The position numbers and the translations under genes are program-made. The notes under the pieces are model-generated. The model made no database searches. It was not told where the DNA came from and saw nothing but the letters and a program-made list of their open reading frames with translations. A stretch of DNA of 14,225 nucleotides from Candidatus Thorarchaeota archaeon (GTDB lineage: Archaea > Asgardarchaeota > Thorarchaeia > Thorarchaeales > Thorarchaeaceae): positions 1 to 14,225 of the forward strand of contig JAOUFI010000054.1 in assembly GCA_029858305.1 (NCBI GenBank). Direction: 5' to 3'. This document shows positions 9,311 to 12,832 of the stretch, piece by piece (within the stretch, counting starts at the first letter, position 1; each line of letters opens with the position of its first letter).

Positions 9311-10105
9311 TCAAAGAGTATTGACCATTTTTGTGAAATCTGATTTAATCTTCAGGGCTCCCTCTGAACCACCAAAATCCCCCGGTGTGATACTGATTTC
9401 ATTCTCCTTCAAAAGGACTTCAATGACCATGATTCCTGGTACTTCAATCTTCATTCCGGGTGTTCCACTTCGCTCGATTTTCTCTGTGTAGACAATATCT
9501 GAGTTCTTGATTGTCGCCATCATTAGGTAGCCGGCTTTCTTGTCTGCTAGTGTCACTGTGGGTTCTGATGTCAAGGGGGGAGTTGGTTTTGCTTTTGGTG
9601 GTGTATATTTTTGTCCTGCTGGTTCATCTCGTATCGTTCGAGCTGTCAGCACAGGTTCTGGTTCTGGCTCTCGTCGTTTGGTTGGGGCACCAGCAATAGG
9701 TTCGGTGCTACTCGTAGCTACATCCTTTTTGAAAGCCAAGAACTTGTCATCGAAACTCCACTTATAGTCTAGAATAGTTTTGAAAGACATGATAGCAGAT
9801 GCAACTTCAGGATCCGTGTCATCCTTCTCCATCATTTCTATGAGCTTTCCAGAAGCGAGTCCAATAGTTGTCACACCAATCTTAAACCCAGACTTCTGAA
9901 TGCTTCTCGCCATACGTGTCGCATGCATTCTTGTAGGCATACTCACGTGGCGACCAATCCATAGCCAACATGTGTCATTGTATTCATCAAGCACAATTAA
10001 CGCATGGTCTGCGTTCACAAGTCCAACATCTAACCGCACTGGAGCGAGCTCACCTGAATCATCGGATAGCATCAGCAAAAACGGTTTTCTTGAAAGCGTC
10101 TTCAT
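9311..10105 (-). CDS. Gelsolin-like domain protein with Pro/Thr-rich linker and unrecognised C-terminal domain
   Basis: N-terminal about 115 aa: LVNADHALIVLDEYNDTCWLWIGRHVSMPTRMHATRMARSIQ...LIEMMEKD...F follows the gelsolin core pattern (hydrophobic strand-D, W.W.G, long helix A...A..I, E...F). ATG at 10105 is preferred to 10156 because GGAGG lies at 10118-10122 and a TATA-like box at 10164-10170. Confidence 0.72.
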   Translation of the reverse strand: MKTLSRKPFLLMLSDDSGELAPVRLDVGLVNADHALIVLDEYNDTCWLWIGRHVSMPTRMHATRMARSIQKSGFKIGVTTIGLASGKLIEMMEKDDTDPEVASAIMSFKTILDYKWSFDDKFLAFKKDVATSSTEPIAGAPTKRREPEPEPVLTARTIRDEPAGQKYTPPKAKPTPPLTSEPTVTLADKKAGYLMMATIKNSDIVYTEKIERSGTPGMKIEVPGIMVIEVLLKENEISITPGDFGGSEGALKIKSDFTKMVNTL

Positions 10106-10162
10106 TATAGAATATAGCCTCCTATGGTATGGTATGTCCCTACAGCTTCTCATCACTCATTG

Positions 10163-10178
10163 CTATTAAGAAATTCTT
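10163..10178 (-). promoter_or_regulatory. Putative TATA-like promoter of the gelsolin-domain gene
   Basis: Minus strand AAGAATTT-CTTAATAG, about 60 nt upstream of ATG 10105. Same core as at 1225-1231 and 10948-10954. Confidence 0.4.
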
Positions 10179-10211
10179 GGACAGACTCCGAGCAGAGTAA
10201 GTGTCCTTTTT
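10179..10211. terminator. Intergenic stem-loop just downstream of the Lrp/AsnC gene
   Basis: GGACA(10179-83)/TGTCC(10202-06) outer stem with inner ACTC/GAGT stem. A T5 run follows on the plus strand, so the orientation and function are unclear. Confidence 0.35.
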
Positions 10212-10216
10212 GCCTT

Positions 10217-10483
10217 CTAGGAAGCCAAACTGGTGGATGTCATGTCAATCTCAGAATCTATTACCAGTATTGACTGTGTATCTTCAATGCCTTTGATGCT
10301 ACGAACCTTCTGTGTTATTATCTCGACAAGCGTTTCCATATCTCGTCCACGCACTTCTGCAACAATATCATAGGGCCCAAAGACTTTGTGTGCCTCTTCT
10401 GTAACTGAGAGTTCGAGTACTTCTTTTAGAACTGCGTCTTCTTGTCCAACATGGGTGTTAATTAGGATGTAGGCTTTCACCAT
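10217..10483 (-). CDS. Stand-alone Lrp/AsnC ligand-binding (RAM) domain protein (demi-FFRP type, no HTH)
   Basis: MVKAYILINTHVGQEDAVLKEV...EAHKVFGPYDIVAEV......L.EIIT.KVRSIKGI.DT.S is the classic RAM pattern (AYILI, GPYDI). Archaeal-type RBS GGTGAT lies just upstream of ATG 10483, giving 88 aa. Confidence 0.9.
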   Translation of the reverse strand: MVKAYILINTHVGQEDAVLKEVLELSVTEEAHKVFGPYDIVAEVRGRDMETLVEIITQKVRSIKGIEDTQSILVIDSEIDMTSTSLAS

Positions 10484-10638
10484 AGTCAGAATCACCGGCT
10501 CGAGTCTGAGGGCTGGCAAAATAGACAGATAATACTTTCTCTAAGCTACATTGCCACCCTCTTTTCTCTCAACTTCCTATATCCTTTCGAACAGTATACG
10601 AGAAGCGTTTCAGAATTAAAAGCAATGAGAAGAATATC

Positions 10639-10666
10639 AAAAAAGCTGAAAGGGGACTGAGCCCCT
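10639..10666 (-). terminator. Hairpin plus U-tract terminator downstream of the 45-aa ORF
   Basis: Minus strand AGGGG-CTCAGT-CCCCT-TTCAGC-TTTTTT: a 5-bp GC-rich stem followed by a T6 run. Confidence 0.6.
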
Positions 10667-10715
10667 ATGCTCAACCCACTGCATATTTGCTAGAAGTAGC
10701 GTGGTGCGTTGATGT

Positions 10716-10853
10716 CTAGCCAGACATAGCAAACCGCGGACACTTGTCCTTAGTTATACCAGGAGTTTCGCAGGGCTTGTTCATTCCCGTGTAAAACTTG
10801 AATCCGTCAACACCGCACTTACCATCGGCCGCATTATATTTTGGACAGGTCAT
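10716..10853 (-). CDS. Unannotated 45-aa four-cysteine microprotein (putative metal-binding)
   Basis: ATG 10853 to TAG 10716 gives MTCPKYNAADGKCGVDGFKFYTGMNKPCETPGITKDKCPRFAMSG, with C-x9-C-x14-C-x9-C spacing and CPxY/CPxF ends. It fills an otherwise empty gap of about 500 nt, has a GGAAG RBS-like sequence upstream, and is flanked by promoter-like and terminator-like elements. It is below the ORF-track length cutoff. Confidence 0.72.
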   Translation of the reverse strand: MTCPKYNAADGKCGVDGFKFYTGMNKPCETPGITKDKCPRFAMSG

Positions 10854-10880
10854 TGATACATTCTTCCAATTCGGTCTTTC

Positions 10881-10921
10881 TAGTCCACGGTCCCAAACTA
10901 CTAGTAGTCCGGTTTGGACTA
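10881..10921 (-). promoter_or_regulatory. Palindrome-dense putative 5' leader or operator region of the microprotein gene
   Basis: On plus: TAGTCCA(10881-87)/TGGACTA(10915-21), CCAAAC(10893-98)/GTTTGG(10912-17), TAGTCC(10905-10)/GGACTA(10916-21), and a perfect 12-bp palindrome ACTACTAGTAGT(10897-10908). Confidence 0.5.
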
Positions 10922-10946
10922 ATATTTTTGACCTTAGGGTCGATAC

Positions 10947-10962
10947 ATATTAAGCTATTTCG
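10947..10962 (-). promoter_or_regulatory. Putative BRE/TATA promoter of the microprotein gene
   Basis: Minus strand CGAAATAG-CTTAATAT: BRE-like CGAAA followed by TTAATA. Standard archaeal spacing would put the start site near 10924, immediately before the structured leader. Confidence 0.5.
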
Positions 10963-11002
10963 GTTAGTTGTATTCTAGTGAATGAGTTCGCCATTGCTTC
11001 GA

Positions 11003-11815
11003 CTATAGAACTCCTCTCTTCTGAAGAACTTGCTTCAATAGAGATGGTTGATCTGTGAATATCCCATCCACGCCCATTTCAAGAAGATAGTTCATCGTGG
11101 GTTCATCATTGATAGTCCAGACATGGACAGCGATGTTGTGTTCATGTGCCTTGCTTATGAATTTCCTAGTCACGATAGTTAGGGGTCCTGATTTGATTGG
11201 GACTTGAAAGGCTCTATATTGAATATCTTTTCTCTTAATCCTAGGTAGTCCTATCTTTGTGTTAAGCACGAATTTCTGAACTTCCCCTGGATGGGCGCTT
11301 GTAGCAACATCCGGCATCAGTTCACGGAAACGTTCAAGCTGTACGCCATTGAACGAAGCGACTATCACGGACTTCCTCCTGTCCATATTCGAAATAAGCT
11401 GTGCGAGTTCACTTGTTGCAGATGGGAAGTCATCTTTGATGTCCAAGTTGAAAATCACATCTGGGAATCTCTCGAACGCATTTTGTAGGGTAACTATTTT
11501 GAGATTCTTTCCCCTGAATGGAAATGATTTCCCATTATCTGTAGTAAATGTGTAGCCCAGATCAAATTGCAGTATATCATCAAGAGTGTATGAGCGAATA
11601 CTTCCTTCCCTGCCTGTCGTGCGCGAAAGGTCGTCATCATGGAAGAGAACAATTTCATTATCCTTGGTCAATCGAACGTCCGACTCGAGAACATCAACAT
11701 CTAATGCGACAGCTGACTCTAGAGATAACATCGTATTCTCTGGTGTTCTTCCGGACTCACCTCGATGGGCCATAATCAGCGGTCTACCAAAATCGAAAAT
11801 TGATTTCTCTATCAT
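11003..11815 (-). CDS. Glycerophosphodiester phosphodiesterase (GDPD, cytoplasmic UgpQ/GlpQ-like)
   Basis: IMAHRG...PENT, LESDVRLTKD...VLFHD..L.RTT, NLDIK, VASF, VHVWTIN, GVDGIFTD.P. Both catalytic His residues and the E-x-D metal ligands are present. Confidence 0.96.
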   Translation of the reverse strand: MIEKSIFDFGRPLIMAHRGESGRTPENTMLSLESAVALDVDVLESDVRLTKDNEIVLFHDDDLSRTTGREGSIRSYTLDDILQFDLGYTFTTDNGKSFPFRGKNLKIVTLQNAFERFPDVIFNLDIKDDFPSATSELAQLISNMDRRKSVIVASFNGVQLERFRELMPDVATSAHPGEVQKFVLNTKIGLPRIKRKDIQYRAFQVPIKSGPLTIVTRKFISKAHEHNIAVHVWTINDEPTMNYLLEMGVDGIFTDQPSLLKQVLQKRGVL

Positions 11816-11890
11816 GATATATCACACAACCTTTCACCGGAATAAGTCCTCCTAATCGTCTAAAACTGGTGTAGATGTATTTATGAGAAA

Positions 11891-12832
11891 ATGACCGATG
11901 ACTATGTATGGAAAGATATGGTGGATGGGAATTCAAGTTTTCCTGAGTTCGAAAGGCTTCTTGAAAAAGACGCTCGTTCAGTCTATCACGAAGATAATCT
12001 AATTGATGCCAGATTTGGAATTGGCATGTTGCTCGCAGTAATTGGACTGACGATTATACTCTTGGGCTCGAGTCTTTCTAGTTTCATCTCCCTTGGACTT
12101 GCCCTGATTACTCTTGGATTACTGATCATGATTGCGACCATCATGATGAATCAATCTAAGCAACGCAAATACAAATTCTATGGTCTCTCCCGTAGTCTAA
12201 TCTCTGAGGCCATCATGTATATTGACATTCAAATATCTCAATCCAAAGACTCCGAATCATCAGTACGTTCTGATGAGATCCCACAGTTTTCAAGTAGCGA
12301 GATTGTGTCCAAGAGAGACAAGTTTCTTCTATTCTTAAGATCGACAAAAGGACTGATTACTTGGCCTTCAGAAACCATCAATCCAATAGAGGAAACTCTA
12401 CGAATTAATCGTGAAAAGCTCCCCTCTTTCCTAACTTGTTTAATAGTGATATTCTTCGTCCTAGCAATTGCCACCTACTTTCTCCTCATCTCAGGAATTC
12501 TTTTGGTGGTTGCCATTGGATTAATTCTACTTATCTGCACCATTCAATATCCCTTCACTATCCTTCAATTTTTGAGGAAGAACTTGCATGTCTTCAAAGG
12601 AGAGTGGATTAGTGATGTTCCCAGATCTGAACAAATTCAATTGGAAGAATCTCTGAATGAAATTTTCTCACGATTACAATCCGAATTTCTGTATCCTCTA
12701 CGATTCTTCGTTGTGCGAGAATATCCAAGCCTAAAATACACTGGCCGAATGAAAACAAGTTCTTCACTCATTCGATTGAAAGAAGCTATATTGTACCCTT
12801 TGAGTTCTATTCAAAACGAAAAGCTACCTTGA
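11891..12832 (+). CDS. Hypothetical membrane protein with two TM hairpins (about 4 TM) and a soluble C-terminal tail
   Basis: 313-aa ORF with hydrophobic pairs at about aa 43-87 and about aa 180-227, separated by a polar region. No family recognised. The 3' end overlaps the convergent dehydrogenase by 26 nt. Confidence 0.75.
   Translation: MTDDYVWKDMVDGNSSFPEFERLLEKDARSVYHEDNLIDARFGIGMLLAVIGLTIILLGSSLSSFISLGLALITLGLLIMIATIMMNQSKQRKYKFYGLSRSLISEAIMYIDIQISQSKDSESSVRSDEIPQFSSSEIVSKRDKFLLFLRSTKGLITWPSETINPIEETLRINREKLPSFLTCLIVIFFVLAIATYFLLISGILLVVAIGLILLICTIQYPFTILQFLRKNLHVFKGEWISDVPRSEQIQLEESLNEIFSRLQSEFLYPLRFFVVREYPSLKYTGRMKTSSSLIRLKEAILYPLSSIQNEKLP

What the first reader, a model, noticed from the sequence alone, without database searches (positions are those of the whole stretch)
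10639..10962. Hidden self-contained cassette: promoter, structured leader, 45-aa four-Cys microprotein, structured trailer, terminator
Seen: the largest apparent intergenic gap holds a minus-strand ORF (10853-10716) missed by the ORF track, MTCPKYNAADGKCGVDGFKFYTGMNKPCETPGITKDKCPRFAMSG. Its Cys spacing is symmetric (C-x9-C-x14-C-x9-C) and it has CPxY/CPxF at both ends. A BRE/TATA-like box lies upstream and a hairpin+U6 downstream, all on the same strand. Inference: a monocistronic, separately regulated small metal-binding protein (Zn or Fe/Fe-S) or a disulfide-bonded protein. I do not recognise the family. Having structured RNA on both sides is unusual in such a compact genome and suggests post-transcriptional control.
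Basis: partly seen in the sequence, partly recalled or inferred. Interest (0 to 1): 0.8.

Follow-up and report, generated by a model that had tools for sequence, protein, structure and literature searches.

The report
Asgard-wide four-cysteine microprotein gene
This is a real, strongly conserved gene for a 45-residue protein with four fixed cysteines, carrying its own promoter and terminator, found only in Asgard archaea and matching no described family; it probably holds a metal ion, but its cellular job is still unknown.

Summary
The ORF at 10853-10716 (-) exists as described. It is a genuine gene.
- All 38 orthologous loci hold an intact 41-45 codon frame with the same start and stop.
- 40 of 42 third codon positions vary, against 19 and 15 for positions one and two. 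pN/pS is 0.14 on the sense strand and 1.99 on the in-phase antisense strand.

A profile finds the gene in 122 of 400 Asgard genomes, near-universal in seven taxonomic families and not found in the rest. A motif scan of 185,579 prokaryote species returned 70 stretches. 69 are family members, all in Asgard-named or unnamed archaeal records. One is a chance hit.

157 of 159 distinct sequences keep all four Cys, spaced x9(13)-x14-x8/9. Nothing matches in Pfam, NCBIfam, PADLOC, PHROGs, PDB sequences or the ESM Atlas.

The promoter box, a 5' hairpin and a 3' hairpin with a T-run are conserved in Thorarchaeota relatives. In the window alone the folds are no better than shuffles.

Best reading: a stand-alone, probably well-expressed, cytoplasmic Cys4 metal-binding microprotein of an undescribed family. 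No conserved partner gene was found outside the Thor family.

The parts
10973..10979 (-). Conserved upstream element ACTAGAA, about 10 nt before the BRE; possible regulator site (inferred)
   Evidence: Present in the aligned upstream regions of most same-genus loci. This element combined with the promoter occurs once in the genome.
10946..10963 (-). BRE/TATA-like promoter box CCGAAATAGCTTAATATG
   Evidence: Its 16-mer core is exact in 25 of 34 Thor-family loci and has at most 1 mismatch in 27. A TTAATAT box lies 77-95 nt upstream of the ATG in 33 of 34. Unique in the genome. Its role as a promoter is inferred from the archaeal consensus, which I recall rather than tested.
10881..10921 (-). Leader stem-loop at the predicted 5' end of the mRNA (start site about 10923, inferred from the TATA distance)
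   Evidence: MFE and centroid fold -17.9 kcal/mol, z -1.63 in the window. A hairpin at the same place but with different sequences occurs in divergent Thor genera. Across 38 leaders the mean z is -0.98 and 8 have z < -2.
10863..10867 (-). Shine-Dalgarno-like GGAAG, 9 nt before the ATG
   Evidence: GGAG, GGTG or GGAGG-like words stand at the same distance in most orthologues of all lineages. The 16S rRNA 3' end of this genome was not examined.
10716..10853 (-). Coding sequence of the 45-aa four-Cys microprotein (stop codon included)
10651..10680 (-). 3' stem-loop (core GGGTTGAGC / GCTCAGTCC, two G-U pairs)
   Evidence: -13.0 kcal/mol, in the top 4.7% of 150 gene trailers of this genome. A hairpin at the same position occurs in most Thor-family loci with at least three different stem sequences.
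10639..10644 (-). T6 tract (U6 in the RNA), probable transcription stop
   Evidence: A run of T6 or longer occurs within 90 nt after only 6% of 400 sampled genes. T-rich tracts follow the stop codon in the other lineages too.

Best explanation
The locus is a self-contained transcription unit for a cytoplasmic 45-residue protein. The protein's small hydrophobic core (F18, F20, Y21, M24) is held together by a site made of its four invariant cysteines (C3, C13, C28, C38), most likely a bound metal ion. I favour structural Zn(II) or Fe in a Cys4 site.

Unlike classical zinc ribbons and rubredoxins, each ligand is a single Cys, not part of a CxxC knuckle.

A dedicated, strongly conserved BRE/TATA promoter drives an mRNA of about 285 nt. 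That mRNA starts with a stem-loop and ends in a stem-loop plus U-tract. These features should make it stable and well expressed.

Nearly every residue is conserved, there is no enzyme-sized surface, and no operon partner exists. The protein therefore most likely works as a stoichiometric small subunit or adaptor, or as a metal carrier, for a partner encoded elsewhere.

Shown: the gene is real and under purifying selection; the four Cys are invariant; it is restricted to Asgard archaea; it stands alone; the promoter and 3' hairpin are conserved.

Inferred: metal binding, which metal, expression level, the mRNA ends, and the partner.
For: Real gene:
- 38 of 38 orthologous loci have an intact frame with the same start and stop.
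- Variable sites by codon position are 19, 15 and 40 of 42. pN/pS is 0.14 over 528 pairs.
- pN/pS is 0.09-0.20 in 14 of 15 pairs from four other lineages.
- The in-phase antisense frame gives pN/pS 1.99.

Cys4 site:
- C3, C13, P27, C28 and C38 are invariant in the diverse alignment.
- 157 of 159 distinct sequences keep the pattern, and 136 of 157 have exactly 4 Cys and no His.

Cytoplasmic: no N-terminal extension is conserved. Residue 2 is small (T, V, P or A in 204 of 215), and no signal-like segment is visible (read).

Disulfides less likely: 2,215 ORFs of this genome show no excess of even Cys counts (869 even against 1,004 odd).

Stand-alone unit:
- Own promoter, own hairpin and T-run.
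- TATA-like boxes, Shine-Dalgarno-like words and T-tracts flank the gene in all six other lineages examined.
- No fused forms: the 5 longer proteins found are over-extended N-termini.

More conserved than its neighbours: 75-98% amino-acid identity across the Thor family, except 64-65% in G032 and G036. The same loci give 47-73% for the GDPD gene and 44-74% for the gelsolin-like gene.
Against: - No metal-binding evidence of any kind was obtained. No structure model could be made.
- The Cys are single, without the CxxC knuckles that define known small Cys4 zinc and iron sites, so analogy with them is weak.
- There is no match to any metal-binding family at E up to 10.
- Expression is unproven, because no RNA run was listed.
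- In the window alone the two RNA folds are not better than shuffled sequence.
- The adaptor or subunit role is pure inference. No partner was identified.
Confidence: 0.55

Rival explanations
1. The four Cys bind an iron-sulfur cluster or a soft metal (Ni, Co, Cu), possibly shared between two protomers or with a partner. The protein would then be a redox carrier or a metallochaperone rather than a structural zinc module.
For: - Single, widely spaced Cys next to Pro (CP, PC), plus nearly invariant Met24 and Met43, fit cluster or soft-metal ligation at least as well as zinc.
- In 4 of 4 loci of lineage f12 the gene sits between the biotin-carrier gene and the B12-dependent methylmalonyl-CoA mutase, B12-binding-subunit and MeaB genes.
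- In 1 of 4 f21 loci it lies directly upstream of CbiM, PDGLE, CbiQ and an ABC ATPase on the same strand.
Against: - No known Fe-S or metallochaperone motif or family matches.
- Methylmalonyl-CoA mutase does not co-occur with the gene. It is present in families that lack the microprotein (f8, f9, f10, f14, f15, f18) and was not found in G037, which has the microprotein and is 96% complete.
- The cobalt-transporter neighbourhood is one locus only.
Confidence: 0.2
2. It is a disulfide-stabilised mini-protein: a twin-Cx9C (CHCH-like) helical hairpin, or two disulfide-closed loops, with no metal.
For: The window protein and 89 of 157 distinct family sequences have exact C-x9-C ... C-x9-C spacing. 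That spacing is the signature of mitochondrial CHCH proteins (abstract of PMC10653836 seen in the listing).
Against: - 67 of 157 sequences have x8 in the second motif and 1 has x13 in the first.
- The second Cys-Cys segment contains Pro or Gly in 153 of 157, which argues against a helix.
- No CHCH-type Pfam family matches at E up to 10.
- There is no signal peptide, and the proteome shows no even-Cys bias.
- These organisms live in anoxic sediments. That is background recall plus the sample labels.
Confidence: 0.12
3. In Thorarchaeota it is an accessory subunit or regulator of the glycerophosphodiester phosphodiesterase (GDPD) encoded just upstream.
For: A GDPD orthologue lies upstream on the same strand in 33 of 34 Thor-family loci. 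Its end is 125-240 nt from the microprotein start in 31 of them and about 1 kb away in L029 and L031.
Against: - The microprotein has its own promoter.
- It persists without that GDPD orthologue in G036 and in all other lineages, where only 30-36% identical paralogues are found elsewhere in the genome.
- It evolves much more slowly than the GDPD gene.
Confidence: 0.07
4. It is a precursor of a modified or secreted peptide (RiPP or bacteriocin-like).
For: Its small size, its Cys content, and the fact that it is a stand-alone cassette.
Against: - No radical-SAM, YcaO, lanthipeptide or peptidase-exporter gene was found next to it in any of the 18 loci from 7 lineages that were annotated.
- There is no leader/core division, and the whole length is conserved.
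- It is single-copy, vertically inherited and under strong purifying selection, unlike typical antimicrobial peptides.
Confidence: 0.03
5. The conservation belongs to a non-coding RNA or to the opposite strand, and the ORF is incidental.
For: The in-phase antisense frame is also free of stops in 32 of 38 orthologues.
Against: - That openness follows from the near absence of TTA, CTA and TCA codons: 0, 0 and 3 of 1,466.
- Antisense pN/pS is 1.99 against 0.14 for the sense strand.
- Variation is concentrated at sense third positions.
- There is no Rfam match at E up to 1.
Confidence: 0.02

Closest known systems
Archaeal zinc-finger micro-proteins with two C(P)XCG motifs (Haloferax volcanii HVO_0758 and HVO_2753; Halobacterium Brz)
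   Same: They are very small (under 70 aa) stand-alone archaeal proteins whose fold depends on four Cys. In HVO_0758 all four Cys are essential for folding and zinc is bound (abstract of PMC10716476). Brz is a small zinc-finger-motif regulator encoded in an intergenic region (abstract of PMC2253796, seen in the listing).
   Different: The window protein has no CxxC or C(P)XCG knuckle; each Cys stands alone (x9, x14, x8/9). Only a few f12-lineage members carry a fifth Cys forming C-P-I-C. There is no detectable sequence similarity. The family is restricted to Asgard archaea. Zinc binding is untested.
Twin-Cx9C (CHCH) proteins of the mitochondrial intermembrane space (Cox17, Mia40/CHCHD4 substrates)
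   Same: The C-x9-C ... C-x9-C arithmetic holds in the Thor-type subfamily, and the size is similar.
   Different: The spacing is not conserved across the family. The second segment is rich in Pro and Gly. There is no HMM match, no oxidising compartment and no import signal.
Rubredoxin, desulforedoxin and zinc-ribbon mini-domains
   Same: About 40-55 residues, four Cys, a Pro next to a Cys, and a predicted beta-rich middle (my reading of the sequence).
   Different: Those families use two CxxC (or CC) knuckles, which are absent from the window protein and from most of the family. Only a few f12-lineage members carry one C-P-I-C. There is no Pfam, NCBIfam or PDB sequence match.
DENR N-terminal zinc-binding domain (Pfam PF21023)
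   Same: An 11-residue stretch around the last two Cys of 3 of 22 non-Thor members scanned singly aligns to profile positions 14-24.
   Different: Scores are 12-14 bits against a cut-off of 25.3, E 0.046-0.17, and only two of the four Cys are covered. Run over 61 relatives' genomes, the model gives only noise, none of it at the microprotein gene in the window's own genome. It also rings below cut-off in 7 of 14 control genomes. I treat it as chance.

Membership tests
Twin-Cx9C / CHCH domain | Two C-x9-C motifs conserved across the family | tested here: not met
   9/14/9 spacing in 89 of 157 distinct sequences, 9/14/8 in 67, 13/14/8 in 1. The window protein itself does have 9/14/9.
Twin-Cx9C / CHCH domain | Each Cx9C lies in an alpha-helix of a helix-turn-helix hairpin joined by two disulfides | not testable with these tools
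Indirect evidence is against it: Pro or Gly in the second segment in 153 of 157 sequences, and no even-Cys bias in the proteome.
Twin-Cx9C / CHCH domain | Match to a CHCH-type profile | tested here: not met
   No such Pfam family matched at E up to 10 for the 37 + 18 members scanned.
C(P)XCG zinc-finger micro-proteins / zinc ribbon / rubredoxin | Two CxxC (CPxCG) knuckles supplying the four ligands | tested here: not met
   The window protein has no CxxC. The family consensus has single Cys only.
C(P)XCG zinc-finger micro-proteins / zinc ribbon / rubredoxin | Four Cys invariant and needed for the fold | tested here: inconclusive
   Invariance is met: 157 of 159 distinct sequences. Necessity for folding was not tested.
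C(P)XCG zinc-finger micro-proteins / zinc ribbon / rubredoxin | Stoichiometric Zn or Fe bound | not testable with these tools
   This needs the purified protein.
DENR_N (PF21023) | Score over the curated cut-off across the Cys4 domain | tested here: not met
   Best score 13.8 bits against 25.3, with 11 residues aligned. Genome scans gave only noise.
RiPP precursor peptide | A maturase or exporter gene conserved next to the precursor | tested here: not met
   None was found among the neighbours annotated in 18 loci of 7 lineages, nor in the window.
Archaeal stand-alone transcription unit (BRE/TATA promoter ... oligo-T terminator) | A conserved BRE/TATA box at a fixed distance upstream and a T-run after the stop codon | tested here: met
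   The actual transcript ends were not observed.
Known RNA families (riboswitch, sRNA, leader) | An Rfam covariance-model match in the leader or trailer | tested here: not met
   0 matches at gathering score over the whole window. 0 matches at E up to 1 in 10520-11010.

The most novel reading that the evidence does not exclude
The family is an Asgard-specific protein fold in which four single cysteines, without any CxxC knuckle, build a metal or iron-sulfur site. It would serve as a dedicated small subunit, electron carrier or soft-metal chaperone of a complex present in Thor-, Hod-, Njord-, Frey- and Atabey-type Asgard archaea but not in the largest sampled Asgard family (0 of 135 genomes). 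That would make it a new kind of metal-binding mini-domain with a lineage-specific cellular role.
Probability: 0.2. Interest if true: 0.7.

Novelty: new variant of a known kind. Interest (0 to 1): 0.5.

Why it matters
Asgard archaea are the closest known relatives of eukaryotes, and genes that are both conserved and specific to them are few and mostly uncharacterised.

This is one of the most conserved genes of its neighbourhood. Even so, every source that names it calls it 'hypothetical protein', gene callers give it inconsistent starts (44-98 aa, one call of 146 aa), and it belongs to no family library.

Its cysteine arrangement does not fit the known small zinc or iron modules, so solving it could add a new metal-site architecture. 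At 45 residues it is cheap to synthesise and ideal for NMR.

It also gives a clean example of a conserved archaeal promoter, 5' stem-loop and 3' stem-loop/U-tract cassette. That cassette could be used to study mRNA stability and termination in Asgard archaea.

Tried and rejected
Each retry came after twenty other calls, as the tool instructed. No model was made, so no fold search was possible.
- Complex prediction (GDPD alignment A5 plus microprotein alignment A1) was not available and nothing was folded.

Expression
- No RNA holder was listed for window 10200-11900.

Family libraries and look-alikes, all without a usable hit
- Pfam, NCBIfam, PADLOC.
- PHROGs (54): best E 0.0083 to an unnamed family in 3 of 21 members.
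- PDB sequences with two profiles at E up to 10 (26, 102).
- ESM Atlas (21: best score 0.83, unnamed bacterial clusters; 51: nothing).
- Rfam (5, 67).
- The sub-threshold Pfam hits (DENR_N, Ectatomin, YNR034W-A-like, zf-CCCH_DUS3L, Cys_rich_VLP, Ribosomal_L11_N) I judge to be noise. DENR_N was followed up and rejected.

Partner and context searches
- Longer or fused forms: only over-extended N-termini.
- Viral contigs: 289 pattern matches, none a relative.
- The search for related loci with the diverse alignment failed for lack of a conserved stretch. A degenerate DNA pattern replaced it.
- Methylmalonyl-CoA mutase co-occurrence: rejected.
- An obligate link to the GDPD gene: rejected.
- A regulon sharing the promoter architecture: none in this genome.
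- Repeated copies of the hairpin arms in the genome: none.

RNA structure
- RNAalifold on MAFFT alignments of leaders and trailers gave only 4-pair consensus helices. The hairpins come in sequence types that do not align in register.

Literature and earlier notes
- Six searches and passages of one preprint gave no description of this family.
- Supplementary tables of Asgard genome papers, which may list it as an unnamed cluster, could not be seen.
- Earlier notes of this scan hold no look-alike.
Full report
**What is in the window**

The minus-strand ORF 10853-10716 translates to MTCPKYNAADGKCGVDGFKFYTGMNKPCETPGITKDKCPRFAMSG. It lies in the 483-nt gap between a GDPD gene (11003-11815, -) and a ligand-binding-domain-only AsnC/Lrp gene (10217-10519, -). 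This is the largest gap between ORFs of 60 aa or more in the window.

Cys stand at 3, 13, 28 and 38. On the same strand the following features are found:
- CCGAAATAGCTTAATATG at 10963-10946, a BRE/TATA-like box. The end of its TTAATAT box is 93 nt before the ATG.
- A predicted stem-loop at 10921-10881.
- GGAAG, 9 nt before the ATG.
- A stem-loop at 10680-10651, followed by T6 at 10644-10639.

No tRNA and no Rfam family is present. The neighbours include a Vps62-like and a weakly gelsolin-like ORF. Homologues are named Thorarchaeota by their sources. The window therefore comes from an Asgard archaeon of the Thor group.

**Is the ORF a gene?**

Yes. A six-frame search of 61 relatives found it in 33 of 36 other genomes of the same taxonomic family, f1. 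Of the three genus-level misses, two are assembly breaks:
- In G016 the contig ends 17 nt after the upstream GDPD gene.
- In G021 the GDPD gene lies at a contig edge.
- The third, G003, lacks both genes and is 85% complete.

I extracted 38 orthologous loci. All 38 carry an intact frame of 41-45 codons with the same start and stop. A 39th locus holds only a fragment.

Over 33 Thor-family sequences, the variable sites by codon position are 19, 15 and 40 of 42. Mean pairwise differences are 0.090, 0.086 and 0.449. pN/pS is 0.14 over 528 pairs. In four other lineages pN/pS is 0.09-0.20 in 14 of 15 pairs; the fifteenth pair is nearly identical.

The in-phase antisense frame is also open in 32 of 38 orthologues. 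This follows from the near absence of TTA, CTA and TCA codons (0, 0 and 3 of 1,466). That frame has pN/pS 1.99. The sense frame is therefore the coding one.

**The family**

Alignments A1 (37 sequences) and A2 (21 diverse sequences) show C3, C13, P27, C28 and C38 invariant. G23, M24 and F20 are nearly so. Among all family sequences gathered:
- 157 distinct cores keep the four Cys and 2 do not. One has Ser for the first Cys; the other lacks the loop that holds the second.
- Spacing is 9/14/9 in 89, 9/14/8 in 67 and 13/14/8 in 1.
- 136 of 157 have exactly four Cys and no His.

The fixed element is the x14 middle segment with F-K-F-Y-x-G-M-x-K-P-C.

**Distribution**

A profile search of 1.84 billion representative proteins gave only 20 hits at E up to 0.001. 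One of them, P0040, is a translated repeat. Another long multi-stretch hit, P0035, I did not inspect.

A profile search of 400 Asgard genomes found the gene in 122:

| Family | Genomes with the gene |
|---|---|
| f1 | 76/85 |
| f2 | 1/1 |
| f12 | 17/19 |
| f13 | 3/3 |
| f16 | 5/5 |
| f21 | 13/22 |
| f24 | 6/6 |
| f9 | 0/135 |
| f5 | 0/31 |
| f29 | 0/14 |
| f14 | 0/12 |
| f23 | 0/12 |

The remaining families also gave none.

Sources name members as Thorarchaeota, Promethearchaeota, Hodarchaeota/Hodarchaeales, Njordarchaeum, Atabeyarchaeum, Freyarchaeota and Asgardarchaeia. Every name given is 'hypothetical protein'.

A degenerate DNA pattern for F-Y-x-G-M-x-K-P-C-[DE], scanned over one genome for each of 185,579 prokaryote species, gave 70 stretches:
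- 67 are full four-Cys members.
- 2 are members cut by the edge of the locus.
- 1, in an Anaerolinea record, is a chance match without the family signature.
- The 69 members all lie in records titled Thorarchaeota, Promethearchaeota, Hermodarchaeota (one) or unnamed archaeon.

None was found in IMG/VR viral contigs.

A maximum-likelihood tree groups the sequences by taxonomic family. It needs 13 label changes against 23 in shuffles, and 0 of 200 shuffles are as low. This fits mainly vertical descent with losses. With 45 columns the deep order is unresolved.

**What it is not**

No family matched in Pfam, NCBIfam, PADLOC or PHROGs, nor in PDB sequences at E up to 10 with two profiles. The ESM Atlas gave nothing usable.

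One lead was an 11-residue similarity of three Frey-type members to the DENR N-terminal zinc domain (12-14 bits against a cut-off of 25.3). Scanned over 61 genomes, that model gave only noise. None of it fell at the microprotein gene in the window's genome, and it gave similar noise in 7 of 14 control genomes. I reject it.

No fused forms exist among the proteins searched. The 5 longer hits are N-terminal over-extensions.

**Genomic context**

In the Thor family a GDPD orthologue lies upstream on the same strand in 33 of 34 loci. A stand-alone AsnC-type ligand-binding-domain gene and a gelsolin-like gene often follow. However:
- The microprotein has its own promoter.
- G036 keeps the microprotein without that GDPD gene; there it follows a 2-oxoacid:ferredoxin oxidoreductase beta subunit.
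- Outside f1 only 30-36% identical GDPD paralogues occur, elsewhere in the genome.

In the other lineages the neighbours differ:
- f12: between the biotin-carrier and methylmalonyl-CoA mutase / MeaB genes (4 of 4 loci).
- f13: divergent from glycerol kinase (2 of 2).
- f16: divergent from polyprenyl synthase (2 of 2).
- f24: behind a KaiC-HTH gene and before a methyltransferase and inositol-1-phosphate synthase (2 of 2).
- f21: beside thiolase and OB-fold-SDR genes (2 of 4), or upstream of a CbiM-PDGLE-CbiQ-ATPase cobalt transporter (1 of 4).
- f2: beside Phe-tRNA synthetase.

Several of these neighbours touch lipid, acyl-CoA or corrinoid metabolism. I defined that theme after seeing the data. 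Its one testable form, co-occurrence with methylmalonyl-CoA mutase, failed. No maturase-like gene is nearby in any lineage.

**The non-coding parts**

Promoter. The core 16-mer is exact in 25 of 34 Thor-family loci and has at most one mismatch in 27. A TTAATAT box lies 77-95 nt before the ATG in 33 of 34. The exception, G032, carries a partial gene duplicate in between. The box is unique in this genome, as is its combination with the conserved upstream ACTAGAA element.

Leader. A hairpin begins about 25 nt after the TATA box, which is at the predicted 5' end of the RNA. In divergent genera the hairpin is kept but with unrelated sequences. This favours an RNA structure over a protein-binding DNA palindrome. 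Energetically the evidence is modest: mean z -0.98, with 8 of 38 leaders below -2.

Trailer. 24 of 38 trailers have z < -2. The hairpin comes in at least three stem types. In the commonest register 86.4% of cells pair, against 24-44% when slid. The covariation score is 0.183 against 0.098 in shuffles (0 of 500 as high).

Within this genome the window's hairpin (-13 kcal/mol) ranks in the top 4.7% of 150 gene trailers. A run of T6 or longer follows only 6% of 400 genes.

In the window alone, however, the folding energies do not beat shuffles. Nothing suggests a riboswitch or masking of the ribosome-binding site. In the other lineages the gene likewise has its own TATA-like box, a Shine-Dalgarno-like word and a T-rich tract after the stop. 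Several of them have their nearest TATA-like box only about 40-50 nt before the ATG, with no comparable hairpin leader.

My reading, which is inference, is a stable and well-expressed monocistronic mRNA whose end hairpins protect it from exonucleases.

**Mechanism**

The protein has no signal peptide or membrane segment. Residue 2 is small (T, V, P or A in 204 of 215 sequences), so the initiator Met is probably removed; that rule is recalled, not tested.

Its core is too small to fold unaided, and its four Cys are invariant. Two readings are possible: a metal or cluster site, or two disulfides.

The proteome shows no excess of even Cys counts (869 even against 1,004 odd among 2,215 ORFs). That test comes from recalled literature on intracellular disulfides. 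Together with the Pro/Gly-rich second Cys segment (153 of 157) and the variable spacing, it speaks against a CHCH-like disulfide hairpin.

I therefore favour a Cys4 metal site. The odds for the whole best reading are about 0.55, with the metal itself open. About 0.2 goes to an iron-sulfur or soft-metal role.

**Comparison and novelty**

The closest known kind is the archaeal zinc-finger micro-protein. Haloferax volcanii has 282 proteins under 70 aa, and 43 of them carry two C(P)XCG motifs (abstract of PMC10716476). The present family differs from it in four ways:
- It has no knuckles.
- It has a different, strictly kept x14 core.
- It is restricted to Asgard archaea.
- It is far more conserved than its neighbouring genes.

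Six literature searches and passages of one preprint gave no description of it. Supplementary tables could not be seen.

Earlier notes of this scan describe other uncalled Cys-rich microprotein families in Thorarchaeota, but none like this one.

I rate it a new variant of a known kind, of moderate interest. It is a clean, cheap target whose fold and partner are open questions. That Hodarchaeales are close to eukaryotes is recalled (Eme et al. 2023, not read here). No eukaryotic relative was found.

Noticed in passing
window 9311-11815 (-); loci L015, L016, L024, L027, L029, L032, L034: In Thor-family genomes the order GDPD, microprotein, stand-alone AsnC/Lrp ligand-binding-domain gene, gelsolin-like gene recurs on one strand. 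The gelsolin-like ORF (9311-10156) has only a weak Pfam Gelsolin hit (E 0.0074).
   Followed up: partly
G032:C77:4241-4303 and G032:C7:1912-1977 (locus L039); G389:C9 and C11: Two genomes of one genus carry, besides the intact gene, fragments matching only its first 20 or last 20 codons. One C-terminal fragment sits directly before the AsnC-domain and gelsolin-like genes. This looks like a rearrangement with its break point inside the microprotein gene.
   Followed up: partly
window 10905-10921 (+): The complement of the leader hairpin is scored as a terminator-like site on the plus strand (stem of 7 pairs followed by ATATTTTTGA). No plus-strand gene ends nearby, so this is probably incidental.
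   Followed up: no
loci L045-L048 (lineage f12): Here the microprotein gene lies inside a methylmalonyl-CoA gene row: carboxyltransferase, biotin carrier, microprotein, mutase, B12-binding subunit, MeaB. In three of the four loci (L046-L048) the protein carries a fifth Cys forming C-P-I-C near the C-terminus.
   Followed up: partly
window 10973-10979 (-): The element ACTAGAA, about 10 nt upstream of the BRE, is conserved in same-genus loci although the surrounding spacer varies. It may be a regulator site. No second copy of this promoter architecture exists in the genome.
   Followed up: partly
window 10839-10841 (codon 5): The window's protein has Lys at position 5, where 33 of the 36 other aligned orthologues have Glu, one has Gln and two have Ser.
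   Followed up: no
window 1333-3627 (+) and 4664-5368 (-): A 764-aa ORF and a 234-aa ORF have no Pfam match at E up to 0.01.
   Followed up: no
window 7616-8302 (-): A 228-aa ORF matches part of the eukaryote-type Vps62 family (PF06101, E 6e-07, profile positions 365-430 of 541).
   Followed up: no
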